A program made the position numbers and the translations under genes. From a virus (Duplodnaviria > Caudoviricetes): DNA of 61,091 bases. The notes beneath the pieces were generated by a model. That model was not told the DNA's origin and did not search any database. It saw only the letters and a list, made by a program, of their open reading frames with translations. The DNA is taken from IMG/VR virus record IMGVR_UViG_3300043470_000556, positions 1 through 61,091 of that record; one strand, given 5' to 3'. Within the stretch, counting starts at the first letter, position 1. Each line of letters starts with the position of its first letter. Below are positions 26,284-60,589 of this stretch, piece after piece.

Positions 26284-26291
26284 TATTTATA
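26284..26291 (-). promoter_or_regulatory. T4-type late promoter TATAAATA for the leftward baseplate operon
   Basis: Exact consensus about 36 nt upstream of the gp48 ATG. Confidence 0.75.
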
Positions 26292-34379: not shown

Positions 34380-34423
34380 AGTGCAGAACCGTAGTGGAAC
34401 TCGGTCCACCTTCTTACTAGAAC

Positions 34424-34781
34424 GGTTGATAGTTTTATTCTGTTTCGAGGAAAAACTATCAAAAACCCAATGCTAGCTTAAGCAGCTAGGGCAAAGGCAA
34501 CGTTATCGTTTGCATTTACTTTTTGTGGGCGCTTTACCCAGTCAATCAGTCTACTCTCGCCTTCAACTCGCAGTCGAATCCTAAGTACGCCCCCATCATA
34601 GATACTCTGGCTAGAGAGTACCTGCGATTCCAAACTCTGCCTATTCTATTGCCCGGATTTCAGCAATAGTAATCGAAACTTTTATTAGCCGGTGTGTATT
34701 CGGCCCAGAGTATCTATGGTGGAGGCGAGGGGAGTTGCACCCCTGTCCTACGCAGCATTCAGATTGTATCAACAACTGATA
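34424..34781 (-). ncRNA. ssrA: Circularly permuted (two-piece) tmRNA
   Basis: On the minus strand the acceptor piece GGACAGGGGTGCAACTCCCCTCGCCTCCACCA (CCA end at 34717) comes before the 5' piece GGGGGCGTACTTAGGATTCGAC (starts 34594). The acceptor stem has G3:U70. The tag ORF at 34513-34478 encodes ANDNVAFALAA*. Outer ends are approximate. Confidence 0.93.
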
Positions 34782-34784
34782 TTC

Positions 34785-34815
34785 TATTTATACTATACAT
34801 GACGTAGGAAGTCAA
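34785..34815 (-). promoter_or_regulatory. Overlapping sigma70-like (TTGACT-17-TATAAA) and late (TATAAATA) promoters for the tmRNA
   Basis: -35 at 34815-34810, -10 at 34792-34787, TATAAATA at 34792-34785. Confidence 0.7.
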
Positions 34816-34820
34816 GTCTT

Positions 34821-45196: not shown

Positions 45197-46595
45197 TAAT
45201 TTCCTTACACATGTAATAGAAGTCTTTATATTCAGGAAACAGTTCTAGAAGACCCAATCCAACAGATCTCTTATCGTATTCAGTAAAGAATTTGTAAAAA
45301 TCCTTTCTTCCGTTCTCGATTAACTTCTCATCAATTCGCGGACCACCCTGATAAAAGTAATTACGAACACGCTTGAGTTTTTCGTATTCTTGCTCTTGGA
45401 ATCCATGGACCAATCCTGGTTCGGCAATATTATTTTGAATGTATTGAAGATCAGAATCAATATACCGACCAAATTCTTCTTTCGGTAGAAGATTGATCAT
45501 CCAGTGTGGTGGTTCCTTGAGATAAGGAGTATCAAACATAATACGATTTTGGTATGGGTTGACGTTCCACTTCTTGCGCAGTTCCAGAATTTTCTCTAGG
45601 AACGGACGGAAAGATGCAACACAAAGAATATTATATGTGCACATAATGCTAATTGAAACATCAGGAACTGTCTCAAGAAACGTCTCAACATTCTTCAACC
45701 AAAGATCCTGATTTAAACCACGACGCATATACTCTGCTTGTGGACCCCATGCTTCCAACGAGGTATACATCTTAAAGTCTTTGATTTTTTTCTTATCAAG
45801 AAGATTCTTCACAGAGTCAGAAAGACGCTGCACTCGATTATTGCTTACACCCATATTACTGTTGATGTTCAATTCTAGGTGCTGCGTGTCATCACCTGAT
45901 TCAATTTCCTTAAACAACTTCATTGTGTTGGGATTGATCAATGCTTCACCGCCTGTTAGACGAAGAACACGGAGATCTTTCTTTAGATCAGGCCACCATT
46001 TCCAGAATGCATCAACATAGGGATTGTCTTCGTCATCTTTATATACCTTCGTAGTCTTAAGATAATCGATACCATACTGATTGTAACTAATGTCATAGTT
46101 ACCATGATCACGAATTTCTTGTTCCCAAAGAGATGATGCTTGAGGGCAACAGTAACCGCACTTAAAGTTGCAACCATTGCCAAAACTTACTTCTAAGAAA
46201 TATGGATTATAATCCTGATCCCACGGGAGACTTTTAACCATCTCAGTTTCTGTCTTGGCATCAATCCAAGTACTGGCATTGTGGAACATTCGATCGCTGA
46301 AGTTTTCTCCAGGAAGGTTTTCTACGTTCCAACAGTAATAACATTCTTCCGGACGTCCGCCCTCGAGCATGATCTTGCGCTGCTGTTTCTTCCATTTTGT
46401 GTTATGTAGTGCAGAAGGATTCTCTGCAATTTCTTCCAATGGAATGCGTTGTGGGCGAGGATGATAGCAACTGTGGTTGTCGCCCATGTGCAAATACAAT
46501 GTTTCATGGCGCCATTTCTGCAAACAGAATCCATTCCCAACTGTATTGAGAGTGTCCCGAACTTCGCGGACTTTGTCGAGATAACTATTGCTCAT
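45183..46595 (-). CDS. Radical SAM protein with N-terminal Cys domain
   Basis: CNFKCGYC, LTGGEA, and N-terminal FC..KW...HSCYHP...CYYCW. Paralogue of 46585-48234. Confidence 0.9.
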   Translation of the reverse strand: MSNSYLDKVREVRDTLNTVGNGFCLQKWRHETLYLHMGDNHSCYHPRPQRIPLEEIAENPSALHNTKWKKQQRKIMLEGGRPEECYYCWNVENLPGENFSDRMFHNASTWIDAKTETEMVKSLPWDQDYNPYFLEVSFGNGCNFKCGYCCPQASSLWEQEIRDHGNYDISYNQYGIDYLKTTKVYKDDEDNPYVDAFWKWWPDLKKDLRVLRLTGGEALINPNTMKLFKEIESGDDTQHLELNINSNMGVSNNRVQRLSDSVKNLLDKKKIKDFKMYTSLEAWGPQAEYMRRGLNQDLWLKNVETFLETVPDVSISIMCTYNILCVASFRPFLEKILELRKKWNVNPYQNRIMFDTPYLKEPPHWMINLLPKEEFGRYIDSDLQYIQNNIAEPGLVHGFQEQEYEKLKRVRNYFYQGGPRIDEKLIENGRKDFYKFFTEYDKRSVGLGLLELFPEYKDFYYMCKEINDAN

Positions 46596-48234
46596 TTTTG
46601 CATCTTTCATAAAAATTAATTAATTCGGGGAAGGTTTCTTTGAAATTTGTATTTCTTCGCCTATCCAACTCGTCAACATATTGAGCAAATCGAATCATAC
46701 TAGTATTTAGTCGACTCTGCTCCATTCCTTGTCGCATTATATCTAGGTCTCGTCTAACTTTGTCGATTTCATACTGCTTAAATCCACGGAAACTGGTGGA
46801 GTAATCATCTCCTTGGATATTTTTTTCCATAAACTCCACGCTACTTTCCATCATAGCAATCATCTCAGAATCCGCCATCTTTATACTCAACCAACTTGGA
46901 GTATGGAGAATGGGTATATCAAACCAAATTCTTTGACTGCGAGGTTTAACTATAGGTTTCTGCCCAGGAACATCAAAGACAATATCATTTTGTTTGTCGT
47001 ATGCGAATTCTTCGCGTAAGTCAAGAATCCATTCTAGGAATTTTTGTAACTTTGGGATACTCAGAAGATTGAATGTATTAATGATTGTAATATTAGTGCA
47101 GTTCGTCTCTCTCAAAAATGTTCTAACGTTCGAATCTAAGATATCAAAATTCATCCCAGTTCGAATATACTCAGCTTGCGGACCTACGCTATCACAACTT
47201 ACAAACAATGAAAAGTGCTTCATCACAGGAGCAGTACATTCAAACTCATAAGAAAATCCGCCATCTTCTTTACTTTTTCCGGATTCTGTTAGTTCGGGAA
47301 TGTTTTCTGGTTCTATTGATGGTAACTCGCTATGGTAAAGACGCTTATTCTTATCACCAATGATATAGTGTTGCCACTCTTTCCACTCAGTCCCATTTTT
47401 AGGATCGGGAACAAAACATTTTACCGTATGGTGTGCTGTTTCCATTTTCTTTACTTGAGTCAGAAACTTGTCAAACAATTCTTGCTTAGGTGGACACAAA
47501 TTGCTGGTAATACTCAATTCAAGATCTGGATTGGGGTGATGATAAACGTAATCCAATACTTTAAATGTATTGTTATCCATTAGAGGTTCGCCACCAGTCA
47601 TTCTAAAAATCTTTAGCGTTTTATATAATTCAGGCCACCATTTCCAGAATGCTTCTACGTATGGATTTTCTTTCTGCGAAACTTTCTTTGGCATCAATCC
47701 ATAGTCAGTTAATGCACCAAGATGATTATGTGCTGCATCCTTCAGAATATATGCACCATATTTTTCTGCTTCTTCTTGCCAAGAGGTACTAAGATGCGGG
47801 GAACAATATACACATTTAAAATTGCACGCCTGATTGAAATTTACTTCAACATACGCTGGTGTGATTGTTTTGTCTAGGGATTTATTAGTTGCAATTTTTT
47901 CAAAGTCGGGTGAATTCCACCACTCACTGCTACGATAGTGTCGATCACTCGTGTGACCTGCATCTTCGATACGCCAACAATACGAACATCCATCAGGACG
48001 TTCGCCTTTACGCATTTTAGCACGTTCTTCAATTTTCTGTGGGGTATTGTGGAGCAATCCTGGATTTTCCGACAATCCCTCTAGAGGAATATCGTGCGTC
48101 GGCGGATGATAGCAACTATGCGTCTTACCATTAGTAAGATGCATACTCACCATATTCCATTTTGCCAAACAGAATGTAGAACTTACTGTTTCAAGTTTCT
48201 GCTTGGTTTCTTCTGCCGAGTCTCTATAATCCAT
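46585..48234 (-). CDS. Radical SAM protein with N-terminal Cys domain
   Basis: CNFKCVYC, MTGGEP, and N-terminal FCLAKW...HSCYHP...CSYCW. Confidence 0.9.
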   Translation of the reverse strand: MDYRDSAEETKQKLETVSSTFCLAKWNMVSMHLTNGKTHSCYHPPTHDIPLEGLSENPGLLHNTPQKIEERAKMRKGERPDGCSYCWRIEDAGHTSDRHYRSSEWWNSPDFEKIATNKSLDKTITPAYVEVNFNQACNFKCVYCSPHLSTSWQEEAEKYGAYILKDAAHNHLGALTDYGLMPKKVSQKENPYVEAFWKWWPELYKTLKIFRMTGGEPLMDNNTFKVLDYVYHHPNPDLELSITSNLCPPKQELFDKFLTQVKKMETAHHTVKCFVPDPKNGTEWKEWQHYIIGDKNKRLYHSELPSIEPENIPELTESGKSKEDGGFSYEFECTAPVMKHFSLFVSCDSVGPQAEYIRTGMNFDILDSNVRTFLRETNCTNITIINTFNLLSIPKLQKFLEWILDLREEFAYDKQNDIVFDVPGQKPIVKPRSQRIWFDIPILHTPSWLSIKMADSEMIAMMESSVEFMEKNIQGDDYSTSFRGFKQYEIDKVRRDLDIMRQGMEQSRLNTSMIRFAQYVDELDRRRNTNFKETFPELINFYERCKNEQ

Positions 48235-50051: not shown

Positions 50052-52103
50052 TTACTTGGTCAGGGCTCTATAAACCCCGTCAAAGTTAGCAGGAGGTTCG
50101 CCCTCCATGCGCTCGAGCATCATATCATAGTAATTATTTAACTCTCCACGCCAGCAGTCTTTAAGATCGCTGGCGTATTTTTTAGCAACTTCCCATTTAC
50201 CTTGGCGATAAAGTTCGATGAATTTCTTATGCTGTAACTCTGATGCTGCTTCAAAGAATGGCAGAACTGTATAGATTGAAACTGGTTTTGTTTTGCCTTT
50301 AACAGCAATCAAGTCAAGTTCGACTACTTGGTATACATCCCCCACCGATTCGGCCGTTTGTGGTCCGACGACGAGTTTGACGCCATAAGGTTTGGATTGA
50401 CCTTCGAGACGAGCAGCCAGATTAACGCCGTCACCCAGACAAGTATAATCGAAACGCTGATCGCTGCCCATATTGCCAACAACCACAGTGGCAGTGTTAA
50501 TACCAAGACCCATACCGAAAGCGGGAATGCCTTCTTCTTTAATGTCTTCATTGAAAATCTCCAAGTCTTTTAGCATCTGAAAGGAAGTTCGAACTGCGTC
50601 CAGTGCATGTTGCTTATTATCCAACGGTGCATTCCAGAATGCCATCTGCGCATCACCGATATACTTATCAAGTGTACCGTTGTTTTCGAGAATCGCCCTT
50701 GTCATAACTGTCATGTAACGATTCATAATCTTTGTTAGACCTTGAACGTCATCGCCGTAGTGCTCAGAAATCGTAGTGAATCCACGAACGTCTGTAAACA
50801 TGATCGACAGTTCTCTAGAGTCACCACCAAGTTGTAGTAGTTCTGGTTGACGCTGTAGTTGTGCAACAAGATCTGGCGACAGGTACGTACCGAACTGCTT
50901 CTTAATTTGTTGCTTCTGTAGATACTCGCTAATGAACTTGGCAGTGTAGAGATGAATGTAGATTAGAGCAATCGCGAGTACGTTAAATGTAACATCAAGC
51001 AAAATACCCTGTTGCGCAAACAGGTATACTGGTAAATAGAAATATCCGCCCAACAGAACTGCGATAAATATAATCGAGAATCTGAATCGAGAAAGAATGA
51101 TCAATGCCAGCGCAAGACCCAGAAAAGCAGCAAGATCCGCAATTGCTGACCAGTTCGGTATCGCAACCGAATCCCCATTTATCAGAGTTTCAAGAATACT
51201 CGCCTGAAGGACGTGGGGATGTTGCTCACCTTGTGGAGTCGCTACAGGGTTCGCTATACCAGCAGCAGTTACGCCAACAATCACAATTTTCCCGTCAAGA
51301 CGAGGAATATCACCACCTACTTCAACAGATGGAAATACGTAATTGGGGTTGATGAACACCCGACTATATTCATCTGTTTTAATTGTTTCAAAAGAAGGAA
51401 TTCGTAATGCTTCGACCCCAGTCTGATTTATCTTGGCTTGATATGAAGAGTCTCCTGCAGCTACACGCAGCATCTCTAGAGCAAATGCGGGATAGTATTC
51501 GCCTGATGTTTGAGATAGAAGAGGAACTCGCCTTACAACCCCATCACTCTCGGGTAGGGTTGACGTTATCCCAACACCGACTGCGGCTTCTTGAAGAATT
51601 GAGATATTACTTAGAACGCACGGGTATTGAGGAAGAAATTCAGTTGCTTCTCCATCGCCGATTACGGCAACGCCTGTCCTCCGAATTGTCGCACTTGCCC
51701 GAGAACAAGAATCGCTTACCGTCTGACTCAAAACCACTGGATACTGATTTAGGGTATCCGCAAGAACTCGATCAGTCCCCATCCGATCAGACTCAGGCAT
51801 AAGTATAGTGCTACCAACAACAGCAGCCCCTCGACTATAAAGGTCGTTAATAATTTTAGCATGGACTTCCCTCGGGAAAGGCCACTGACCATATTTCTCA
51901 ATTGCTTTCTCCCCAATATTGACTGTTACAATTTGCTCGGATTGCGTCGGCGAACCGAGCATCAAATAATCATAAAACTTCAATCTCGTGGATTCAACCA
52001 TGTATGGATCAGATAGTTTTACCCAAAGAAGAATACTAAAAGTAAGTAGTGCCAACCAAGGCGAGAGTAAAACTTTTTTAGTTCTTTGTGTAAGAGTATC
52101 CAT
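50052..52103 (-). CDS. CHASE2-domain class III adenylyl cyclase (membrane-anchored)
   Basis: N-terminal TM; CHASE2 motifs (V.I.E..I..YGQWP.PR, DGVVRRVPL, GKIV.VG.TA.G); three TM helices; cyclase motifs FTDVRGFT, DKYIGDA.MA, GIN...GNMGS..R.DYT..GD.VNLAARLE and VKGK. Confidence 0.95.
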   Translation of the reverse strand: MDTLTQRTKKVLLSPWLALLTFSILLWVKLSDPYMVESTRLKFYDYLMLGSPTQSEQIVTVNIGEKAIEKYGQWPFPREVHAKIINDLYSRGAAVVGSTILMPESDRMGTDRVLADTLNQYPVVLSQTVSDSCSRASATIRRTGVAVIGDGEATEFLPQYPCVLSNISILQEAAVGVGITSTLPESDGVVRRVPLLSQTSGEYYPAFALEMLRVAAGDSSYQAKINQTGVEALRIPSFETIKTDEYSRVFINPNYVFPSVEVGGDIPRLDGKIVIVGVTAAGIANPVATPQGEQHPHVLQASILETLINGDSVAIPNWSAIADLAAFLGLALALIILSRFRFSIIFIAVLLGGYFYLPVYLFAQQGILLDVTFNVLAIALIYIHLYTAKFISEYLQKQQIKKQFGTYLSPDLVAQLQRQPELLQLGGDSRELSIMFTDVRGFTTISEHYGDDVQGLTKIMNRYMTVMTRAILENNGTLDKYIGDAQMAFWNAPLDNKQHALDAVRTSFQMLKDLEIFNEDIKEEGIPAFGMGLGINTATVVVGNMGSDQRFDYTCLGDGVNLAARLEGQSKPYGVKLVVGPQTAESVGDVYQVVELDLIAVKGKTKPVSIYTVLPFFEAASELQHKKFIELYRQGKWEVAKKYASDLKDCWRGELNNYYDMMLERMEGEPPANFDGVYRALTK

Positions 52104-53532
52104 TACATGGTCCAGTCGTGCATGTTATTTCCATTTTCGCAGAGTCGGCAGCAGTCAAGTTATTTTGTGTGACAGTTACACCAATTCCAGGACTATTTAG
52201 TAAAAGTTGAAATTGCTTTGCAGACGCACCTAATTGAGTCACCGATGCAGTAACTCCGCCGAATGGTGCATCAATTTGTAAAAAGTGATTACCTGCACCC
52301 TGTTGTAAGGTGCTGATATTATTAGAGTTTCCTAAAGCATTGATAAACAACGATTTTCCGTTAGCATCTTTTTGTTGTGCAGTTATTTGATTGCTTAGAC
52401 CATTGGTCACAATCTCGGCGTATTTACCATTATATTGTTGTGTCAACGATACTATATTGTTATTACCAGTTACTGATACTTCTGCTAAGTTCTTACCGAT
52501 TGGTGTTGTTGCTGTGCCTTGATTGATAGTAATGCTGTTGCCGCTACCATTGATTGTCATAGCTGGTGCGCCATTGACACCACGAATCTGGTTCTGCTTA
52601 GAAAACTGTTCAATATAAACTGAGTTGTTAGACCCAGTTGCATTAATGTATATTGAGTTTTGTGTAATTGCGTTTGTTTGATTAATCTTTAGCGATTGGT
52701 TAGCACTAATCGATGCCAGTGGATAAGTTGGTTCTGGTGGTGTTGGCGCAGGAGGTGGTGGAGCAGAAGAACCAGCATTTGGTTGAACTGGAGTAAACGT
52801 TGTTCCGTTTAAAGAGGTTGTTCCTTGCATCTGATCGATAAACAGAATTGGTGACAATGCGGTATCTCCAAGATTGAACGAAGCAAATCCTAATAGATAA
52901 TTTCCGTCAGCAGGAACGGTGAACACGGCAACTTGCCAACCAGTGGCACCATATGAATTTGTCGAATAGTTACCAGTTCCAGGATTAGTAAATCCGAGAA
53001 GAGCAAAGTTTTGAGTTTGCCCATTGATTGTTGGAGTGCCATTGCCACCAGTAACAGTGATCATCGATCCGTCATTGTATGGAACATAGTCAGTAGATAG
53101 ATACTGCCAAGCATAAGTGTAAGTCACACCTGCTTGGAGAAATACTGTTCTACTAATAGAAGTTGCGTTTGTGGGATACATGTTGCCATTAGAGTAAATG
53201 GTATTCTTGATTGATGTAATCACAGAACTTTGTAGTCCCAGCGTCGTCATGGCACTATCAAAACCAGGAGAACCTCCTCCTGCTTGTAGTGACACCATGT
53301 AAGAACCATATGGAGTAACTGTCCAGCACTTACCTCCACCTGGACAATAGTTAGTCATACCAGTTGTAACTTGAACACCCGAACCATCTGGACCCCATGT
53401 GGTTCTTGCTGTAGTCGAACCATTACTGACAGTCCATCCAGCATAGTCGCCATTCTCGAAACCGTAGTTTGTAACTTGCGCAAATGTTGGCATTGCAAAG
53501 AACAGTAGAAAGAGAGCAATTAGTCTTTTCAT
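52078..53532 (-). CDS. Secreted protein: N-terminal beta-sandwich, Pro linker, C-terminal curlin-like repeats
   Basis: Signal peptide (..PTFA|Q), NYGFENGD..GW, and C-terminal G.NN.(V/I)...Q repeats. Confidence 0.7.
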   Translation of the reverse strand: MKRLIALFLLFFAMPTFAQVTNYGFENGDYAGWTVSNGSTTARTTWGPDGSGVQVTTGMTNYCPGGGKCWTVTPYGSYMVSLQAGGGSPGFDSAMTTLGLQSSVITSIKNTIYSNGNMYPTNATSISRTVFLQAGVTYTYAWQYLSTDYVPYNDGSMITVTGGNGTPTINGQTQNFALLGFTNPGTGNYSTNSYGATGWQVAVFTVPADGNYLLGFASFNLGDTALSPILFIDQMQGTTSLNGTTFTPVQPNAGSSAPPPPAPTPPEPTYPLASISANQSLKINQTNAITQNSIYINATGSNNSVYIEQFSKQNQIRGVNGAPAMTINGSGNSITINQGTATTPIGKNLAEVSVTGNNNIVSLTQQYNGKYAEIVTNGLSNQITAQQKDANGKSLFINALGNSNNISTLQQGAGNHFLQIDAPFGGVTASVTQLGASAKQFQLLLNSPGIGVTVTQNNLTAADSAKMEITCTTGPCNGYSYTKN

Positions 53533-54674
53533 CTTGCACCTGTTTCTTGTATTACTGTAATATTACCTTGTGGTCTGCCAGTTCCAGATGTTGTCCACTT
53601 GTCGTCCATAAAGTTATAAACATCCACAAGTCCATTCTGCACAGAAACAACTTGTGCTTCTGACCCCTTTTCTAACCAGATAGTGATTGCTTGTTGCTTG
53701 TCCTCGGATAAGCGAGTATACACCCACCCGACCTGAACGTTTTTCTTAAATGTAGGAGACACGTTAGTATAAACTGTTTCTGCTGGTTTCGTACCCTCAT
53801 TAAATTCAGCATAAACATCTAAAAGTTCTTGAGGTGTTGCTGGACGAAGCATCGCTATGGAAACTTGTTCGACGTTATCATTTGTGCCTGCATCTGGATC
53901 TTTATTATCGTCGGATGCTGCTTTAGAAGGATTGACAAATTTCTTTAAACTGTCTCTGGCAAGTTGCAAGAGACTTTGACCATCATCTGTTTCTAGTGGA
54001 ACAATCTGAACGTTATTGTCTAGTGACTTAATCAACGGATTGATTACCACTGGTGGTGCAGGAGGTGCAAAGTTGTTTTCGACAACAGTTGCTTGGAATG
54101 GTTTGTCTAATGTAACTACGCCCGATGCCGTAATGACATCAATCATACCATTAGGACATTCGGCAGTTTGTTTTGTAATATCTAATTCGTTATAGCATTC
54201 TGGAACCAGCACGACTGTAGAACGACCTGCTTCATCAACCGACATAACGAAGTCTGTCCCACGAACTGCGATAGTAGCAGTTGGTGTGCGAATGTTTACG
54301 CCTTTTCCGTTACCTTTGGCGATTTTACCTGAAGTGTATCTGACTGTTCCAAGCGCGACCCGAAGTCCAAGTTTGCCCTTCGTTTTCCCTCCCCCATCAT
54401 AGACAAAGTCGTCCACAAGAAGTCGAGAGTTTTCTGTAATATTGACTGTAGTCGAATCATTGAATGTAATCCTAAATCTACCTTGAGAGTTGGTGGACAC
54501 TGTGTCCATCTTTTCAACACCAGAACCTTTAGTTGCTGGTGTGGTCTTGGCGCCACGCTTAATAGCACCACCACCTCTGAAATCTGTTATCGACCCAATA
54601 CCAGCAACGGCAGGAGTCGATAACAGAAAAATCAGTAGAAGATTAGTGACCAGTTTTGATATTAAACGTGCCAT
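53529..54674 (-). CDS. FecR-domain periplasmic protein
   Basis: Signal peptide and D.V.T....RI.F.D.T.V.I.ENS.L..D...G..RY.SG.I...IRTP.ATI.VRGTDF. Start is uncertain (track gives 54686). Confidence 0.85.
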   Translation of the reverse strand: MARLISKLVTNLLLIFLLSTPAVAGIGSITDFRGGGAIKRGAKTTPATKGSGVEKMDTVSTNSQGRFRITFNDSTTVNITENSRLLVDDFVYDGGGKTKGKLGLRVALGTVRYTSGKIAKGNGKGVNIRTPTATIAVRGTDFVMSVDEAGRSTVVLVPECYNELDITKQTAECPNGMIDVITASGVVTLDKPFQATVVENNFAPPAPPVVINPLIKSLDNNVQIVPLETDDGQSLLQLARDSLKKFVNPSKAASDDNKDPDAGTNDNVEQVSIAMLRPATPQELLDVYAEFNEGTKPAETVYTNVSPTFKKNVQVGWVYTRLSEDKQQAITIWLEKGSEAQVVSVQNGLVDVYNFMDDKWTTSGTGRPQGNITVIQETGAR

Positions 54675-55416
54675 TAGATCCCACACTGTTAATGTTGATC
54701 ACAGTTTCCGATGCACCATATTGTTGTGTTGTAATAGTGTTTAGAGAACCTGTTAGATTTACATACAGAGAGTGACCGAATGTTCCACCAAGATCAGTTT
54801 GAGTAACATCAAAATCATTGTAGTTACCTGTTACTAGAATTGTTTGTGATGCATTTGGTGATAGTGCATCCATATTGATTGTGTTATTGTTACCGCTGAA
54901 GTCCATCGAGTTACGGATATTAGCACCTGAACCATGGAAAACAAACGAGTTGTTATTACCAGTGAACCTAGCATTCATATCAAGTTGATTACATGAAGTA
55001 TCTGCTTGTAATGTTCCGCAACGGATATCAGCGGTATTCAGGTCACCGATTTGACGAATTGTTACATCGGCGATTCCTTGTGCTCCTGTGTCGGATACGA
55101 CACCCATATAAAGCTGGTTTCCATTGCCTGTTTGAATTGCGATGACGCTTTGATTATCACCACGTAGGTAAATAGGATCGATAGCAGAACCGATGACATT
55201 AGCAGTCCCAGTTTGAACAACGTTAACATCTACGTTACCCCCTTCTTGATCAATATAAACCTTGTTGGTTGTAGCAACAGAATTCGCATCTGTTTCATTT
55301 GGCGAAGTCGTTACAATTGCTGGAGGTGTTGGTGCTGTTGGTAGCACAGTTTGTGCAATCGCAGATGTTCCATAACAAAGAGCAGCGCCAACGAATAAAA
55401 ACTTACTTAGTTTCAT
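54643..55416 (-). CDS. Curlin-repeat-like secreted protein (CsgA/CsgB-like)
   Basis: Signal peptide MKLSKFLFVGAALCYGTSAIA, N.VYIDQ.G, and repeated Q.G..N / G.NN units. Start adjusted to 55416. Confidence 0.7.
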   Translation of the reverse strand: MKLSKFLFVGAALCYGTSAIAQTVLPTAPTPPAIVTTSPNETDANSVATTNKVYIDQEGGNVDVNVVQTGTANVIGSAIDPIYLRGDNQSVIAIQTGNGNQLYMGVVSDTGAQGIADVTIRQIGDLNTADIRCGTLQADTSCNQLDMNARFTGNNNSFVFHGSGANIRNSMDFSGNNNTINMDALSPNASQTILVTGNYNDFDVTQTDLGGTFGHSLYVNLTGSLNTITTQQYGASETVININSVGSNGTFNIKTGH

Positions 55417-56227
55417 TTGTCGTTTCCTTTTGTTTGAATCTCCATAGACTTTTCTTTTCACCATCCTTGATTAACTCAACAACGGCCGTTTCTATGGCAG
55501 AACGGATCGCATAACTACCTGCTTCATTACTTGTTTGTTGTCCATCAAATTCAAATGCTTTTGTTGCCATGTCGAAGAATGTGAAAGCAGTAACTCCCTC
55601 GGAAGTGGAGAGAACAGTTTTCTCCACAGTAACCGAATTAAGAACTTCACCAGTCTGGACAGAAACAAGGCGAAGACTGACTGTAACTTGGTCTTGTGTA
55701 TATTGCTGGTATGGACCGACGCCGAGGAAACGAGCACCAGTACCGCCAGTCTTGATGTTTGAGTTGTAGTCGATGATACCACCTTCTATGATGATACCCG
55801 CAACTTTCAACGGAGGCAGAGGTTCCGCACCTTCGCCTGAAATCTGTTCGCGCATCTGGCGGACAAGTTGACGTTCTTTGATCAGCGAATCAATACCGAC
55901 ACGCTCCACAGGAACAAACCACTTACCGTCGCCTGTATCTTGTAGTGTTTTGATCAAATATGCATCAGCACCCTGAGTAACCGCAGTAGAGAAACTTGCA
56001 AGGGTTGACGATGGTTTACGTTGACCAGTTCTATCAGTGAACGAGTATAGAGCGATAGGAATTGGTTGTCCATCTAACTCTGGTAGATTCTTGAACAGTT
56101 TTGGATTAGCAAAACGCTTGACTTCGGCATCGTCTCTAAAGAGATATGATTGGTTGGTGGTAGGATGAAGTGCACCAACACAACCAGAAGTTGCGAGAAG
56201 AAGTGGAAGGAGAATTAACTTTTTCAT
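55403..56227 (-). CDS. csgG: Curli secretion channel CsgG (lipoprotein)
   Basis: Lipobox-like LATSGC; A.Y.F.D.TGQRK...FSTAVTQG...L...WF..VER...L.KERQ..R...EGGII.Y...GG.GARF.G.G...Y..D.V.V.LR.V...TGEV...AIE.AV. Start adjusted to MKKLIL. Confidence 0.92.
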   Translation of the reverse strand: MKKLILLPLLLATSGCVGALHPTTNQSYLFRDDAEVKRFANPKLFKNLPELDGQPIPIALYSFTDRTGQRKPSSTLASFSTAVTQGADAYLIKTLQDTGDGKWFVPVERVGIDSLIKERQLVRQMREQISGEGAEPLPPLKVAGIIIEGGIIDYNSNIKTGGTGARFLGVGPYQQYTQDQVTVSLRLVSVQTGEVLNSVTVEKTVLSTSEGVTAFTFFDMATKAFEFDGQQTSNEAGSYAIRSAIETAVVELIKDGEKKSLWRFKQKETTNETK

Positions 56228-56237
56228 GGTCATCTCC

Positions 56238-56687
56238 TTAGAACGCAAACGTAGCAATAGGAACAGTAACAACCGTAGTGTTACCATTTTTATCGACAAC
56301 AGTTAGTGTGACTTCTGTTCCAGTTTTAACATAACTTACAGAATTGCCATCAAGATTGAATGTTCCTGTGCTGGCATTCCCACCTTCTGCGAACAGATTG
56401 TTTGAAAGTTGTGTAGCAAGTTGCGCATACACCTGAGAGGTAAACAGCGCCATGAACTTTGCCAGAGGAGTGTTTGATGCCTCTGCTCTTGCTAGTGCTG
56501 CCTTTGCTGCCTCAGCATCTTTGATTGCCTGTTCACGCGAACGCTCTTGCGCATCAATCGATTGCACATGCGAAGACCACCCGTAACCAGTAAAGGAAGG
56601 TGATTTAAATTGTTGAACTATGGGGTCGGCAAATGCTGGACTACTTAGACTTAGTAGTAGCAGGAGCATCGTCGCTCGTTTTAACAT
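56238..56687 (-). CDS. csgF: Curli assembly protein CsgF-like
   Basis: Signal peptide followed by QQFKSPSFTG, similar to the CsgF mature N-terminus F.NP.F.G; immediately upstream of csgG. Confidence 0.8.
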   Translation of the reverse strand: MLKRATMLLLLLSLSSPAFADPIVQQFKSPSFTGYGWSSHVQSIDAQERSREQAIKDAEAAKAALARAEASNTPLAKFMALFTSQVYAQLATQLSNNLFAEGGNASTGTFNLDGNSVSYVKTGTEVTLTVVDKNGNTTVVTVPIATFAF

Positions 56688-56778
56688 CTTTCTCTTCCTT
56701 TATTTTTTTATTATCTGAAGAAAAATTTAAATCAAACGTAAATACTTTAAGGATCTCAATCTTTAGATTTATGGTCAC
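56641..56778 (-). CDS. Small hypothetical protein (45 aa)
   Basis: Strong RBS GGAGG then GTG. Translation MTINLKIEILKVFTFDLNFSSDNKKIKEEKDVKTSDDAPATTKSK; overlaps both neighbours. Confidence 0.45.
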   Translation of the reverse strand: MTINLKIEILKVFTFDLNFSSDNKKIKEEKDVKTSDDAPATTKSK

Positions 56779-57019
56779 TGTGATCCTCCTTTATTTGCAA
56801 TACAACGCTCACCTTCTGGTTTAATCTTATCAAATCGTTATCTAACATACGAACACGGTCAATCAACGCAATTAAAATCACATTGGTTTCACCAATCAAC
56901 GGCATCAACTTATCAGTTACGAATTTATAAATGAACCAAACGAAATAACCCATGCCGACAGATGCGACAATTGGGAATCCATATTGCTTAACTAGTTCTG
57001 CTACAATAGAAGGATCCAT
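56756..57019 (-). CDS. Small single-TM protein with coiled-coil tail
   Basis: YGFPI.A..G.G.F..F TM segment and LIDRVRMLDNDLIRL; paralogue of the next gene. Confidence 0.8.
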   Translation of the reverse strand: MDPSIVAELVKQYGFPIVASVGMGYFVWFIYKFVTDKLMPLIGETNVILIALIDRVRMLDNDLIRLNQKVSVVLQIKEDHSDHKSKD

Positions 57020-57306
57020 TAATCTTTCCGAGCATCGTTCTTCCCGTCTGCTCGTGCAATTCTATCTAGATCTGGTTTGAGACCTAAAGCGGAACTGACA
57101 ACTGCATCAACGCGAATAATATCATGGTTCATAGTTTTCACTCGGTTATCTAACCCCATGATGATACCCTGCATTCCCTTGAGTGCTTTAACAACACTTT
57201 CAAGAATGTAGTTGATGACAAAATATACGAATACACCCGCAAGTAAGGCACCTGCGATCGGGAAACCAACGTCTCCGATTAGTTTAAAAATAACATCGTA
57301 ATTCAT
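57019..57306 (-). CDS. Small single-TM protein with coiled-coil tail
   Basis: VGFPIAGA...G.FVYF TM segment and LDNRVKTMNHDIIRVD; TAATG coupled. Confidence 0.8.
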   Translation of the reverse strand: MNYDVIFKLIGDVGFPIAGALLAGVFVYFVINYILESVVKALKGMQGIIMGLDNRVKTMNHDIIRVDAVVSSALGLKPDLDRIARADGKNDARKD

Positions 57307-57311
57307 ACGAC

Positions 57312-57319
57312 TATTTATA
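57312..57319 (-). promoter_or_regulatory. T4-type late promoter at the head of the curli/cyclase operon
   Basis: Exact TATAAATA in the 18-nt intergenic gap. Confidence 0.7.
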
Positions 57320-57324
57320 AGATT

Positions 57325-58590
57325 TTACTTGGCACCGTTAAATTTAACTGCTAAATTCAGGAATTGTCCCAATTTATGTTGAACGCCAACCTTGTTGGAT
57401 CTTATACTGAAATTGAGTTTAGTAGTCTTCAGATTACAAGTCAATGATATGTCAAAATTCTGTTTTGACGTGGTGGATTTAGTAATCTTCAGTCCACCAG
57501 TTTTCTTAGACCTTACGACGCATGATTTAATTATATCCTCGTCCGTCTGCATTTCAAAATCGCCTGTCGTTTCAATTGCCTTCACAACAACCAGAGGAAC
57601 ACCGTCTTGTTCGCCAGCAACGACTTCTGTTAACCATTTCTTTGTGGTGGCATCATTTGCTGATAATATTTCTACCAGTTTAGATCTCATGTACTCCAAG
57701 ACAGCATCATACCGCTTATCATAATCTTGTTTGTTAGAAATCTCGTATTTACCCAATGAATCGTAAAACTCTCTAGATCCAATCTTCTTAGGGTCTTTCG
57801 GCATTCCTGGAATATCAACATAGAACTGATTGTATGCCTCAACCTTCATCTTTTCGAAATCCGCTTTCTTACCGAACCACTCCACAATAGGATTTACATA
57901 TGTGTTCAACTTAGGTTCTTGCGTTTTAGCACCACCCGATTTTATAGAGGCACCAACCATAGAGTTGTCATTGAACTTTAAGAATATGTCACCTTTGTGG
58001 TTTGGAAGAACACCAGTTGGTTTATTTCTATATCCCCAGTAAACATCAGTTACTGGTTTGCCTTTATCTTGTTCGCGGATGAATTTAAGGACAGCAAGTG
58101 CGCCAGTTACTTTCTGTTTGAACTTCGTTGAGGTTTCTGCTTTATCTACGAATTCTTTCCCAGCAATGTTATCATTTCTAATATAGCAACTTAGATCTGG
58201 TCTGTTATTTTTTAATATTGCTGCGTAAAACTTATCAGTAGTAGTTAAATCCTGATTTTCAATCTTCGTTAAGAATGCGATACAAGGGAACAGTTCGGTG
58301 ATTGAAGAATTTAGAGTTGTTTCCTGCATCCCTCCACCACGTTTGTTCTTGTAAAGGATATTAAGACTTTGTCCCTCGATGACAGTTGCAGGAAAAGAGG
58401 AACCTGAAACGATTTGTTCTTTAAACTTGACTTCGTTATCTTTCAACGTCGACTCAAGAATACCCTTTGACTCTTGCCTGTCTTTATCGCAGTCGACTAC
58501 AATCTTTGAGGGCGTGGAAGATCTTATAGAAAACCCGTCCACACCCTCGATGATTTGTTTAATTTTATTGAGTTGCTCTATTGTTGCCAT
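57325..58590 (-). CDS. Putative PD-(D/E)xK restriction-endonuclease-like protein
   Basis: T.LNS.ITEL.P, W.YR.KP...H.GDIF..F...GASIK, a D...SxK variant active site. A TATAAATA lies at 58616-58623. Confidence 0.5.
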   Translation of the reverse strand: MATIEQLNKIKQIIEGVDGFSIRSSTPSKIVVDCDKDRQESKGILESTLKDNEVKFKEQIVSGSSFPATVIEGQSLNILYKNKRGGGMQETTLNSSITELFPCIAFLTKIENQDLTTTDKFYAAILKNNRPDLSCYIRNDNIAGKEFVDKAETSTKFKQKVTGALAVLKFIREQDKGKPVTDVYWGYRNKPTGVLPNHKGDIFLKFNDNSMVGASIKSGGAKTQEPKLNTYVNPIVEWFGKKADFEKMKVEAYNQFYVDIPGMPKDPKKIGSREFYDSLGKYEISNKQDYDKRYDAVLEYMRSKLVEILSANDATTKKWLTEVVAGEQDGVPLVVVKAIETTGDFEMQTDEDIIKSCVVRSKKTGGLKITKSTTSKQNFDISLTCNLKTTKLNFSIRSNKVGVQHKLGQFLNLAVKFNGAK

Positions 58591-58623
58591 CTTTATACTC
58601 ACATATGTTATGTAGTATTTATA

Positions 58624-59779: not shown

Positions 59780-60589
59780 CTAAAATAGATCCGCTAGAGA
59801 AGATTCTACCTTACGATACTTCTTGTTACGGTCATGGAGTTTCAACTCTGCGTGACCAGTGGTTTCTCGGATATACATTGTGCAAAGTTCGGGGAACTCA
59901 TCAGCAATAATCTTCACGCTGTCATACACATATTCCTTAGTGCGAACATCTTGAAGACCACCTTCTTCTTTGTAGTAACGAGACTTGACCGTGTAGTTGT
60001 CAAGACGAGCAAGAACACCATTCTTGATATACTGGCGAATAGAATATTCGTAATCTTCGCCGTGGTTGGTTACTCGAGCGAGAAAATCATCATGTTCAAC
60101 AATCACACCAAACATCGAGGCAATGATATAGCAAATGTCATTGTATACTCGATCTTTCATAAAGAAAGCATTTGATGCTGCGTAGATACCAAAGGTCTTA
60201 GCACCTACCTTTTCACATTCTTCAAATCCACGAATAAAGATTTCTCGCTCGAGATCTTCGACACGACCCAACTTCTGTTCGCTGATTTTAACTTGAACTT
60301 CTTCAATGTCATCATCGAACATCATCAGTCGTGTACCTTCCGGATACCAACGTTCAATAAAGTTACGTTGTGCGCCGATAGTTGGAACACCGCGAATAAT
60401 CTCGATATCCTTAGCGTAAGGGTTTTCCTTTAGCGCATTAGCATATCGGTCATACTCACCTTCTTCCTGATCATTAACAAAGATCTTGATTTTAGCAGGA
60501 TCGATGTTGTATGATTCAAGAACTTTCAATGTCTTATTCTGAACAGTCTGTTCGCGATGATAAGACGGAATAGCAATACTATATTCCAT
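59780..60589 (-). CDS. TET-associated glycosyltransferase (TAGT/GREB1-like, GT-A fold)
   Basis: Motif IAIPSY.R...RNFI...MFDDD...EDYE.S...GG.Q..R; TAATG-coupled to the oxygenase. Confidence 0.75.
   Translation of the reverse strand: MEYSIAIPSYHREQTVQNKTLKVLESYNIDPAKIKIFVNDQEEGEYDRYANALKENPYAKDIEIIRGVPTIGAQRNFIERWYPEGTRLMMFDDDIEEVQVKISEQKLGRVEDLEREIFIRGFEECEKVGAKTFGIYAASNAFFMKDRVYNDICYIIASMFGVIVEHDDFLARVTNHGEDYEYSIRQYIKNGVLARLDNYTVKSRYYKEEGGLQDVRTKEYVYDSVKIIADEFPELCTMYIRETTGHAELKLHDRNKKYRKVESSLADLF

What the first reader, a model, noticed from the sequence alone, without database searches (positions are those of the whole stretch)
50052..57319. Phage operon coupling a curli secretion apparatus to a FecR protein and a CHASE2 adenylyl cyclase: a candidate trans-envelope signalling system
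Seen: one overlapping-gene operon in the order two TM paralogues, small ORF, csgF, csgG, curlin-like, FecR-domain, secreted curlin-repeat protein, CHASE2 cyclase. No csgC, csgD or csgE is recognisable. Established: CsgG/CsgF form the outer-membrane curli channel, and curli-like genes have been reported in some aquatic myophages. In Sinorhizobium meliloti, CHASE2 cyclases (CyaD1/D2/K) are activated through the outer-membrane receptor NsrA. Inference: instead of bulk amyloid, this could be a surface sensor in which a CsgG-displayed curlin-repeat protein relays via FecR to CHASE2 and produces cAMP. That would let the infected cell sense contact or superinfecting phage and adjust lysis timing, aggregation or host CRP-type regulons.
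Basis: partly seen in the sequence, partly recalled or inferred. Interest (0 to 1): 0.88.

Follow-up and report, generated by a model that had tools for sequence, protein, structure and literature searches.

The report
Phage curli operon with receptor cyclase
A freshwater T4-like phage carries the curli-secretion gene cluster already described in marine phages, and comparison with bacteria suggests that it joins a fibre-export machine to a separate periplasm-sensing enzyme that makes cyclic AMP.

Summary
One tightly packed minus-strand cassette (57306-50052) encodes two small membrane paralogues, CsgF, CsgG, a curlin-repeat protein, a secreted FecR-domain protein, a second curlin-repeat protein with an extra N-terminal domain, and a CHASE2 class III adenylate cyclase. 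The "small ORF" is doubtful.

The cluster is not new. The same order is annotated in Pelagibacter phage HTVC008M and Methylophilales phage Melnitz. PMC9599517 describes the module, FecR and the cyclase included.

Three points add to this:
- FecR plus CHASE2 cyclase is an alphaproteobacterial pair that lies apart from curli genes. FecR lay beside 28 of 80 bacterial cyclase homologues and CsgG beside 0 of 80. FecR and the cyclase lay beside 0 of 7 bacterial csgG loci.
- In many of those bacteria the FecR domain heads a giant RTX/VCBS adhesin.
- Within phages FecR is co-inherited with CsgG and curlin, not with the cyclase.

The trans-envelope sensing idea is plausible but unproven. A complex prediction gave no answer. 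I rate this a new, apparently freshwater member of a known kind, of moderate interest.

The parts
57312..57319 (-). TATAAATA motif, T4-type late-promoter-like, ending 6 nt before the first ATG of the cassette
   Evidence: 11 matches in the window, all on the minus strand, against 3.95 expected; 0 of 100 shuffles reached 11. Position read. That this motif is the T4 late-promoter consensus is recalled knowledge.
57019..57306 (-). Small membrane protein, paralogue A (95 aa): one N-terminal hydrophobic helix and a charged helical tail
   Evidence: phrog_18771 at 6.2e-30. No Pfam family. Hydrophobic segment at residues 17-35. Alignment A4.
56756..57019 (-). Small membrane protein, paralogue B (87 aa)
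   Evidence: phrog_18771 at 5.9e-30. 28% identical to paralogue A. No histidine-kinase domain; only sub-threshold YvrJ matches in 7 of 18 family members, best E 0.07.
56641..56778 (-).
   Evidence: It overlaps paralogue B and csgF, so its conservation is confounded by those overlaps. It is unlike the small CDS of HTVC008M.
56238..56687 (-). CsgF homologue with signal peptide (149 aa)
   Evidence: PF10614 at 8.8e-18. phrog_35372 at 1.3e-34.
55403..56227 (-). CsgG outer-membrane lipoprotein channel (274 aa from the ATG at 56227)
   Evidence: PF03783 at 9.4e-53. Full-length alignment to E. coli CsgG structures, 1e-47. Signal peptide ending in a lipobox cysteine.
54643..55416 (-). Cur1: secreted curlin-repeat protein (257 aa), about 22-23-residue repeats
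   Evidence: Family profile A2 hits the curlin-repeat protein 8c50 (3.3e-5) and CsgA 8enq (2.7e-4). Curlin_rpt found in 8 of 12 family members at E<=0.1; the window's own copy scores E 0.014, below the cut-off. Periodic invariant G/N/Q columns.
53529..54674 (-). Secreted FecR-domain protein (381 aa from the ATG at 54674): signal peptide, FecR-like N-terminal half, variable C-terminal half
   Evidence: PF04773 at 5.4e-13, residues 61-161. phrog_37870 at 1.8e-60. Alignment A5. All below cut-off: LipL45 7.4e-9, Lsa33 9.7e-8, retention_LapA 0.0016.
52078..53532 (-). Cur2: secreted fusion of a variable N-terminal domain, a proline-rich linker and C-terminal curlin repeats (484 aa)
   Evidence: Curlin_rpt found in 8 of 10 family members; the N-terminal domain is PA14 in 2 of 10 and GLEYA in 1 of 10. 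Alignment A3. The AF2 model has strand repeats at 292-457 (mean pLDDT of the whole model 57.4). Weak leads to a carbohydrate-binding module.
50052..52103 (-). Receptor adenylate cyclase (683 aa): TM helix, periplasmic CHASE2 domain, further TM helices, class III cyclase domain, conserved ~70-aa tail
   Evidence: PF05226 at 2.8e-39 and PF00211 at 1.3e-16. phrog_35576 at 4.4e-238. Closest structures are adenylate cyclases: 6fht 2.5e-33, CyaB 3r5g 5.3e-32. D438, K480, D484, N561 and R565 are invariant in 23 phage and bacterial sequences. Hydrophobic segments at 10-28, 319-337 and 367-385.

Best explanation
This is a freshwater member of the phage type VIII secretion (curli) module already described in marine pelagiphages. 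It is probably transcribed late as one operon. It is best read as a fusion of two bacterial modules that lie apart in bacteria.

The modules:
- Module 1 is a curli export set. CsgG forms the outer-membrane channel, CsgF sits with it, and there are two secreted curlin-repeat proteins. One of them (Cur2) carries an exchangeable, lectin-like head.
- Module 2 is an alphaproteobacterial pair: a secreted FecR-domain protein and a CHASE2 receptor adenylate cyclase.

Shown here:
- The domains and the intact catalytic residues of the cyclase.
- The conserved gene order across phages.
- The separate bacterial origins of the two modules.
- Co-inheritance of FecR with CsgG and the curlins in phages.

Inferred:
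- The infected cell exports curlin fibres that carry binding heads.
- The FecR-domain protein works in the periplasm with the CsgG/curlin machinery, which lacks CsgE.
- As in its bacterial relatives, the FecR-domain protein is the periplasmic input to the CHASE2 domain. The state of the surface fibre or channel would thus set cytoplasmic cAMP.
- cAMP then acts on host receptors.
- The two small membrane paralogues are inner-membrane accessories of unknown role that track the CHASE2/TM part of the cyclase.
For: Domains. Catalytic residues are invariant in 23 cyclases.

Conservation: the order is conserved in HTVC008M and Melnitz and in 47 of 47 informative viral loci. The module, including FecR and the cyclase, is published with metatranscriptome hits (PMC9599517).

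Curlin identity of Cur1 and Cur2. PA14 or GLEYA heads occur in relatives of Cur2.

Two separate bacterial modules:
- 0 of 80 bacterial cyclase loci have CsgG, CsgF, curlin or the TM genes within 10 kb.
- 28 of 80 have a phage-type FecR, 10 of them immediately upstream on the same strand. The background is 0-4 such genes per genome.
- 0 of 7 bacterial csgG loci have FecR or the cyclase within 10 kb.
- In 18 of the 28 loci the FecR domain lies in an open reading frame of at least 900 aa. In four of the five such proteins scanned it heads a cadherin/VCBS and/or RTX repeat protein. That is a surface fibre encoded beside the cyclase, parallel to the curlins in the phage.

Co-inheritance in phages: FecR distances correlate with Cur1 (rho 0.83) and CsgG (0.79).

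Expression and accessories: a late-promoter-like TATAAATA sits just before the first gene. No CsgE or CsgC is present in the window.
Against: - There is no experimental or structural evidence for any contact between FecR and CHASE2, or between FecR and CsgG.
- FecR distances barely correlate with the cyclase (0.26) or its CHASE2 part (0.21). Tightly co-adapted partners would not be expected to behave so.
- In S. meliloti the FecR-domain protein beside CyaD1 was not needed to perceive the tested plant signal (PMC5498481).
- Cur2 is missing from 19 of 47 cassettes, so it cannot be essential.
- PMC9599517 reports that the cyclase is not always present in podophage versions.
- No cNMP-binding protein was found in the window, nor over the cut-off in 5 related records, so the receiver of cAMP is unknown.
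- The correlations come from related, non-independent sequences.
Confidence: 0.45

Rival explanations
1. The system is a dedicated surface sensor rather than a fibre factory. A curlin-repeat protein displayed on CsgG relays contact or superinfection through FecR to CHASE2, and cAMP adjusts lysis timing or host regulons.
For: The domain topology forces outside-to-inside signalling for the cyclase. FecR is co-inherited with CsgG and the curlins and is syntenic with CHASE2 cyclases in bacteria. Cur2 has a binding-type head. A precedent exists for an outer-membrane protein feeding CHASE2 cyclases: NsrA (passages of PMC7529298 and PMC13001267).
Against: Cur1 has about nine curlin repeats and matches CsgA-type fibre subunits, which fits polymerisation. 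Cur2 is dispensable in 19 of 47 cassettes. The FecR N-terminal domain does not co-vary with CHASE2. No evidence bears on superinfection or lysis.
Confidence: 0.15
2. Two functions that merely travel together. The curli genes make adhesive fibres for aggregation, 'sibling capture' or superinfection defence. FecR plus the cyclase is a separate host-takeover unit that raises cAMP in response to some periplasmic cue unrelated to curli.
For: The two modules lie apart in all bacteria examined. Cyclase and FecR evolve independently within phages. The aggregation and defence hypotheses appear in PMC7029224 and PMC9599517.
Against: FecR always sits between the two curlin genes, inside the curli block, and is exchanged with that block rather than with the cyclase. 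Gene order is kept across very divergent phages, down to about 40% identity. The genes overlap tightly.
Confidence: 0.25
3. The CsgG (with or without CsgF) pore is repurposed as a gated secretin or pinholin that times lysis, as proposed for Melnitz. The other genes gate it.
For: Proposed in PMC9004378. The constriction loop of CsgG differs from E. coli's. The two small single-pass proteins with charged tails have a holin-like size and shape (the resemblance is my inference). A late-promoter-like motif precedes the cassette.
Against: That paper assumed that no curlin subunits exist, but two are present here and in Melnitz's own annotation. CsgG is an outer-membrane channel, so opening it would not depolarise the inner membrane. 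Nothing here ties the cassette to an endolysin: the only lysozyme-like domain found in the window lies in the baseplate hub protein.
Confidence: 0.07
4. The ungated CsgG pore serves as an import channel for nutrients or cofactors (iron complexes, vitamins), with FecR as an iron-related regulator.
For: Suggested in PMC7029224 and PMC9599517. No CsgE gate is present.
Against: The FecR protein lacks the features of the FecIRA anti-sigma system. It has a cleavable signal peptide rather than a cytoplasmic anti-sigma domain plus TM helix, and there is no FecI or FecA among the cassette proteins. Its relatives head adhesins. The idea does not explain CsgF or the two curlins.
Confidence: 0.04

Closest known systems
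Pelagiphage T8SS (curli) module of HTVC023P-type podophages and pelagimyophages (PMC9599517), HTVC008M (KC465899) and Methylophilales phage Melnitz (MZ577097)
   Same: Same genes in the same order: two small paralogues, CsgF, CsgG, curlin, FecR, second curlin, cyclase. No CsgE.
   Different: - Only 39-40% (cyclase) and 41-42% (CsgG) identical to the two isolates.
- About 40% G+C.
- Near-identical DNA occurs in lake-water metagenomes, whereas freshwater pelagimyophages were reported to lack the operon (PMC7029224).
- The cassette sits about 18 kb from the SSB gene, not next to it as in the isolates.
- The paper calls the small paralogues histidine kinases, which domain searches here do not support.
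- The word CHASE2 does not occur in that paper's main text.
Bacterial curli system CsgBAC-CsgDEFG (E. coli) and alphaproteobacterial csgF-csgG-curlin loci
   Same: CsgG aligns over its full length with E. coli CsgG. CsgF and curlin repeats are present. Alphaproteobacterial loci have csgF-csgG with curlin-like genes beside them.
   Different: No CsgE, CsgC or CsgD. A FecR-domain gene, a CHASE2 cyclase and two small membrane genes are added, and none of these was found beside 7 bacterial csgG loci. One curlin is fused to a separate N-terminal domain.
CHASE2 receptor adenylate cyclases of Alphaproteobacteria (CyaD1/CyaD2/CyaK of S. meliloti) with neighbouring FecR-domain proteins
   Same: Same architecture, at 31-39% identity over the full length to alphaproteobacterial homologues. 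A FecR-domain gene is the neighbour (smc02177 beside cyaD1). A signal from outside the inner membrane drives cAMP.
   Different: In bacteria the partner is often a giant FecR-headed cadherin/VCBS/RTX protein, or the input needs the beta-barrel protein NsrA. No T8SS is involved. No Clr/Crp-type regulator is encoded with the phage version.
N-terminal retention module of T1SS RTX adhesins (LapA/MpIBP type)
   Same: The N-terminal ~70 residues of the phage FecR protein resemble it weakly: PDB 5ix9 at E 0.051 and NCBIfam retention_LapA at E 0.0016. The bacterial giants next to the cyclase also match it weakly (5e-6 to 2e-4).
   Different: All scores are below the family cut-off of 50 bits, so homology is a lead only. 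That this module plugs the outer-membrane channel from the periplasm is recalled knowledge and was not tested here.

Membership tests
Type VIII secretion / curli system | CsgG outer-membrane lipoprotein channel | tested here: met
   PF03783 at 9.4e-53. Full-length match to E. coli CsgG structures at 1e-47, with a signal peptide ending in cysteine.
Type VIII secretion / curli system | CsgF accessory protein | tested here: met
   PF10614 at 8.8e-18, above the cut-off. phmmer found no PDB match.
Type VIII secretion / curli system | Secreted curlin-repeat subunits (CsgA/CsgB type) | tested here: met
   Family profile A2 hits the curlin structures 8c50 (3.3e-5) and 8enq CsgA (2.7e-4). Curlin_rpt is found in 8 of 12 and 8 of 10 family members at E<=0.1. 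The window's own copies score below the Pfam cut-off, at E 0.014 and 0.0071.
Type VIII secretion / curli system | Periplasmic accessory CsgE, chaperone CsgC, regulator CsgD | tested here: not met
   No CsgE or CsgC match in the window at E<=0.1. None of the eight cassette proteins matches these families. These parts are not universal outside Gammaproteobacteria, according to PMC9599517.
Type VIII secretion / curli system | Formation of extracellular amyloid fibres | not testable with these tools
   Needs Congo red/ThT binding and electron microscopy of expressing or infected cells.
CHASE2 class III adenylate cyclase | Periplasmic CHASE2 domain between transmembrane helices | tested here: met
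   PF05226 at 2.8e-39, residues 25-335. Hydrophobic segments at 10-28 and from 319 onward.
CHASE2 class III adenylate cyclase | Class III catalytic domain with metal-binding Asp pair, adenine-specifying Lys, and transition-state Asn/Arg | tested here: met
   PF00211 at 1.3e-16. D438, D484, K480, N561 and R565 are invariant in 23 sequences. The best solved relatives are adenylate cyclases. The roles of these residues are assigned from recalled knowledge of class III cyclases.
CHASE2 class III adenylate cyclase | cAMP synthesis | not testable with these tools
   Needs an enzyme assay or complementation of a cya mutant.
FecR anti-sigma factor (FecIRA signalling) | FecR periplasmic domain | tested here: met
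   PF04773 at 5.4e-13.
FecR anti-sigma factor (FecIRA signalling) | Cytoplasmic anti-sigma domain and membrane anchor, with FecI sigma factor and FecA receptor partners | tested here: not met
   The protein starts with a signal-peptide-like hydrophobic stretch, and the FecR domain begins at about residue 61. No other Pfam domain is present, and no sigma factor or TonB-dependent receptor occurs among the eight cassette proteins. It should be called a FecR-domain protein, not FecR.
Histidine kinase (label given to the small paralogues in PMC9599517) | HisKA phospho-acceptor and HATPase_c domains | tested here: not met
   The proteins are 87-95 aa with no Pfam family at E<=0.01. None of the 18 family members matches a kinase domain even at E<=10. 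No PDB match has E below 0.089. The basis of the paper's label may be in supplements that I could not open.
NsrA-type outer-membrane receptor pathway | Beta-barrel outer-membrane protein required for CHASE2 cyclase activation | not tested
   No NsrA sequence was at hand and the NsrA paper is not held. CsgG would be an analogue, not a homologue.

The most novel reading that the evidence does not exclude
FecR-like domains are a general periplasmic coupling device. They link a cell-surface fibre held in an outer-membrane channel to CHASE2 receptors, giving contact- or load-sensing that is read out as cAMP. In Alphaproteobacteria the fibre would be a giant RTX/VCBS adhesin. In phages it would be curli exported through CsgG. 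Phages rebuilt this pathway on a curli chassis so that an infected cell reports what its new fibres have bound, for example sibling cells, particles or other phages.
Probability: 0.17. Interest if true: 0.85.

Novelty: new member of a known kind. Interest (0 to 1): 0.5.

Why it matters
The function of phage curli modules is an acknowledged open question in the three papers read.

This work gives the question a sharper, testable form:
- The "FecR" and "adenylate cyclase" genes are not iron-regulation or generic cAMP genes. They are a receptor pair with its own bacterial history, usually partnered with a giant adhesin.
- FecR is genetically tied to the secretion block, so it is the candidate bridge between the two halves.

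If the coupling is real, it would be the first trans-envelope signalling device known to be installed by a phage. It would also hint at what CHASE2 domains sense, which PMC5192318 notes is unknown.

The window further shows that the module is not confined to marine SAR11/OM43 phages.

Tried and rejected
- **Complex prediction.** Complex prediction of the CHASE2 periplasmic part (residues 30-322, alignment A6) with mature FecR (24-381, alignment A5) scored 0.00 in both runs, verdict "no answer". This is evidence neither for nor against binding.
- **Structure models.** The AlphaFold2 model of FecR had mean pLDDT 40.1 and was not used for fold search. The model of Cur2 had mean pLDDT 57.4. Its Foldseek search of the PDB gave 0 matches at E<=0.001. 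The weak top matches are carbohydrate-binding modules and remain a lead only. The atlas look-alikes of the Cur2 head that carry a Pfam family (CBM_4_9, Cleaved_Adhesin, DUF642; 0.80-0.84) are under 0.9 and are leads only; the two at 0.90-0.91 are unnamed viral clusters.
- **Sequence searches without result.** Megablast of the cassette against phage records found nothing. phmmer of CsgF against the PDB found nothing. The TM paralogues gave nothing significant against Pfam or the PDB.
- **Small ORF.** The 45-aa ORF is not supported.
- **Promoter and terminator scan.** The generic sigma-70 promoter and terminator scan was uninformative: 36 promoter-like sites against 21.8 +/- 4.1 expected, and no terminator after the cyclase.
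- **cAMP receiver.** No cNMP_binding domain in the window. In 5 related viral records, 1 sub-threshold hit and none over the cut-off.
- **Bacterial context.** The neighbours of the Bradyrhizobium FecR-adhesin/cyclase pair are unrelated transport and metabolic genes, with no T1SS or Crp gene among the 10 ORFs scanned.
- **RNA runs.** Contigs from two metatranscriptome-labelled runs that are 90-99% alike cover 27 of 30 and 19 of 30 bins of the stretch. The tool warns that this does not show transcription, and the uncovered bins mean nothing.
- **Unavailable sources.** Supplements of papers were closed, so the basis for the "HK" label and the operon figures of PMC9599517 could not be checked.
- **Correction.** My mid-session note of "31 of 80" bacterial loci with FecR was a miscount. 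The scripted count is 28 of 80.

Full report
**What is there.**
The window is an IMG/VR virus record estimated to be 35% complete. It encodes T4-type baseplate wedge and hub proteins and a gp32-like SSB. It also carries a permuted alpha-type tmRNA. It is therefore a T4-like myophage fragment.

Between 57306 and 50052 on the minus strand lies a run of eight genes that overlap or nearly abut. In order they are:
- two paralogous 95- and 87-aa proteins with one hydrophobic helix (phrog_18771, no Pfam family);
- CsgF (PF10614, 8.8e-18);
- CsgG (PF03783, 9.4e-53);
- a 257-aa secreted repeat protein (Cur1);
- a secreted FecR-domain protein (PF04773, 5.4e-13);
- a 484-aa secreted protein with C-terminal repeats (Cur2);
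- a 683-aa CHASE2 + class III cyclase protein (2.8e-39 and 1.3e-16).

The cassette ends against convergent plus-strand genes. It begins 6 nt after a TATAAATA motif. That motif occurs 11 times in the window, all on the minus strand, against about 4 expected; 0 of 100 shuffles reached 11. I recall this motif as the T4 late-promoter consensus, so late transcription is an inference.

No CsgE or CsgC is present in the window.

**The individual proteins.**
CsgG aligns over its whole length with the solved E. coli CsgG (1e-47). It has a signal peptide ending in a cysteine, and its constriction loop differs from E. coli's at several positions.

Cur1 and its relatives show invariant G, N and Q columns spaced 22-23 residues apart. 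Their profile hits a curlin-repeat protein (8c50, 3.3e-5) and CsgA (8enq, 2.7e-4) among solved structures. Pfam Curlin_rpt is found in 8 of 12 Cur1-type and 8 of 10 Cur2-type proteins at E<=0.1. The window's own copies score below the Pfam cut-off.

Cur2 is a fusion of a head domain, a proline-rich linker and curlin repeats. The head differs among relatives: PA14 in 2 of 10 and GLEYA in 1 of 10. For the window's own head there are only weak, mutually consistent leads to a carbohydrate-binding jelly roll (from a model with pLDDT 57).

The cyclase keeps the residues that I recall as defining an active class III adenylate cyclase: two metal-binding Asp, Lys, Asn and Arg. These are invariant in 23 phage and bacterial sequences. 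A Thr sits at the second specificity position. The closest solved relatives are bacterial adenylate cyclases. Hydrophobic segments flank the CHASE2 domain, so the sensor faces the periplasm and the enzyme the cytoplasm.

The FecR-domain protein has only a signal peptide ahead of the domain and a variable C-terminal half. It is not a FecR-type anti-sigma factor.

The small paralogues have no kinase domain. No family member (0 of 18) matches one even at E<=10.

**It is already known.**
The same order is annotated in Pelagibacter phage HTVC008M and Methylophilales phage Melnitz. I read passages of three papers:
- PMC7029224 reported the curli cluster in pelagimyophages and said that freshwater representatives lack it.
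- PMC9004378 proposed a lysis-timing pore and did not mention FecR or the cyclase in its main text.
- PMC9599517 described the full module in podo- and myophages: "HK", CsgF, CsgG, CsgA/B, FecR, a second CsgA/B and adenylate cyclase. It noted that FecR, HK and the cyclase are not part of bacterial curli operons, reported metatranscriptome hits, and proposed aggregation, superinfection defence or import.

The word CHASE2 does not occur in the main text of PMC9599517 or PMC7029224. A library search for CHASE2 with curli found one unrelated paper, and CHASE2 with RTX and adhesin found none.

**How widespread and how constant.**
The cyclase found at least 586 relatives in IMG/VR, of which the best 80 were kept. 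Of those 80 loci, 47 had at least 5.6 kb upstream of the cyclase:
- all 47 have CsgF, CsgG, a Cur1-type curlin and FecR upstream on the same strand;
- 28 of 47 have Cur2;
- 41 of 47 have the small paralogues upstream, and 46 of 47 have them somewhere in the locus.

In seven loci at least one of the small paralogues lies downstream of the cyclase on the other strand (L060-L062, L064-L066, L082).

**Two bacterial modules.**
I scanned one genome per species with a cyclase alignment. The best 80 loci are mostly alphaproteobacterial and 31-39% identical over the full length.
- With profiles built from the viral proteins, 0 of 80 have CsgG, CsgF, a curlin or the small paralogues within 10 kb.
- 28 of 80 have a phage-type FecR gene, rising to 25 of 49 where both flanks are at least 5 kb long. 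Ten are immediately upstream on the same strand and four are divergent.
- Five of these genomes hold only 4, 1, 1, 1 and 0 such FecR genes in 1.4-7.3 Mb. My estimate of chance adjacency is therefore about 1%.

In 18 loci the FecR domain lies in an open reading frame of 900-2100 aa. I scanned five of these proteins (982-2026 aa). Four carry cadherin-like, Big_9/VCBS or BapA/LapF-type adhesin repeats and/or RTX repeats; the fifth (L151) matched only FecR. The four that were also scanned with NCBIfam include three with a weak match to the LapA-type retention module. In the Bradyrhizobium example this gene and the cyclase form a pair flanked by unrelated genes.

Conversely, the window's CsgG found 6 of 301 sampled genomes of that class. 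Around 7 bacterial csgG loci, csgF (6 of 7) and curlin-like genes are adjacent, but FecR, the cyclase and the small paralogues are absent (0 of 7). Four of five genomes with the closest cyclases have no CsgG at all.

Papers add further cases:
- FecR-domain proteins beside CHASE2 histidine kinases in Burkholderia (PMC5192318);
- the same beside CHASE2 cyclases in Campylobacterota (PMC9239204);
- the same beside cyaD1 in S. meliloti, where the FecR-domain gene was nevertheless not needed to perceive the plant signal tested (PMC5498481).

**Mosaic structure inside phages.**
I compared pairwise distances in 43 non-redundant cassettes.
- FecR distances follow those of Cur1 (Spearman 0.83), CsgG (0.79) and CsgF (0.65). 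They do not follow the cyclase (0.26) or the small paralogues (0.11).
- The cyclase follows the small paralogues (0.67-0.68).
- Split by domain, the CHASE2 and TM parts of the cyclase follow the small paralogues (0.67-0.71). They follow the FecR N-terminal domain hardly at all (0.21), and its C-terminal half moderately (0.52).

A concrete case is five loci (L026, L030, L036, L039, L040). Their small paralogues are 89-96% and their cyclase 73-75% identical to the window. Their CsgF, CsgG, Cur1 and FecR are only 41-43, 44, 27-29 and 29-31% identical, and tblastn with the window's Cur2 found no second curlin gene in them.

The block csgF-csgG-cur1-fecR is thus exchanged as a unit. The sequences are related, so the coefficients are descriptive, not tests.

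**Reading.**
The topology of the cyclase means that its only evident input is periplasmic. The conserved bacterial neighbour, a secreted FecR-like domain, is the best candidate for that input. In phages the same domain is genetically tied to the curli secretion block.

FecR is therefore the natural candidate bridge between an outer-membrane fibre machine and an inner-membrane cyclase.

Several findings count against a tight relay:
- FecR and CHASE2 do not co-vary.
- The S. meliloti result was negative.
- Cur2 is optional.
- No cAMP receiver is known: no cNMP-binding domain was found in the window, nor over the cut-off in five related records of 129-361 kb.

Nothing suggests that fibres are not made. 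I put about 0.45 on the composite reading (fibres plus a FecR-mediated link to cAMP), 0.25 on two independent functions, 0.15 on a pure sensor, and less on the lysis-pore and import ideas.

**Habitat and expression.**
Near-identical DNA is held by 11 runs at half or more of the sampled words. Ten are labelled lake water and one only "metagenome". One of them may be the source sample. A laid lake-water run carries contig pieces with no differences. Contigs 90-99% alike occur in two metatranscriptome-labelled runs, which does not prove transcription.

**Verdict.**
The thing itself is a new, apparently freshwater, member of a published kind. The added value lies in four points:
- the CHASE2/FecR pairing and its adhesin-linked bacterial counterpart;
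- the mosaic inheritance;
- the exchangeable head of the second curlin;
- the correction of the "histidine kinase" and "iron regulator" labels.

Noticed in passing
window 34387-34819 (-): A permuted (two-piece) alpha-type tmRNA gene with tag peptide ANDNVAFALAA, as reported for phage Melnitz. No glutamine riboswitch reached the Rfam gathering score anywhere in the window.
   Followed up: partly
window 50052-57400; runs X1-X14: Near-identical DNA is held mainly by lake-water and freshwater metagenomes. PMC7029224 stated that freshwater pelagimyophage genomes lack the curli operon. The host is unknown. G+C is about 40%.
   Followed up: partly
L078, L082, L054 (viral records of 361, 328 and 259 kb): The same cassette occurs in much larger virus records. 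One is 361 kb with direct terminal repeats and rated complete. The module is therefore not confined to ~140-170 kb T4-like genomes.
   Followed up: no
L091 5290-12139; also L089, L094, L098, L104, L111, L115, L118, L123: In Bradyrhizobium, Methylobacterium and related genomes, a 1200-2100-aa FecR-headed cadherin/VCBS/RTX adhesin-like gene ends just before a CHASE2 adenylate cyclase gene. This two-gene unit is not mentioned in the papers I could search.
   Followed up: partly
L060-L062, L064-L066, L082: At least one of the small membrane paralogues lies downstream of the cyclase on the opposite strand instead of at the head of the cassette (both where the locus reaches far enough). In L063 they were not found in the DNA held.
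   Followed up: no
L001 7973-9808 (HTVC008M cyclase): The HTVC008M cyclase lacks the conserved ~70-residue C-terminal tail that the window, Melnitz and the bacterial homologues share.
   Followed up: no
window 3206-58623, minus strand: All 11 TATAAATA motifs lie on the minus strand. Several sit just upstream of gene starts, for example 26284-26291 before the gene starting at 26247 and 58616-58623 before the gene starting at 58602.
   Followed up: partly
window 59780-60589 (-) and 46585-48234 (-): The flanking genes include a glucosyltransferase-like protein (phrog_842, beta-glucosyl-HMC-alpha-glucosyltransferase, 4e-13) and a 549-aa radical SAM-like protein (phrog_14086, 2.8e-6). These hint at DNA hypermodification genes near the cassette.
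   Followed up: no
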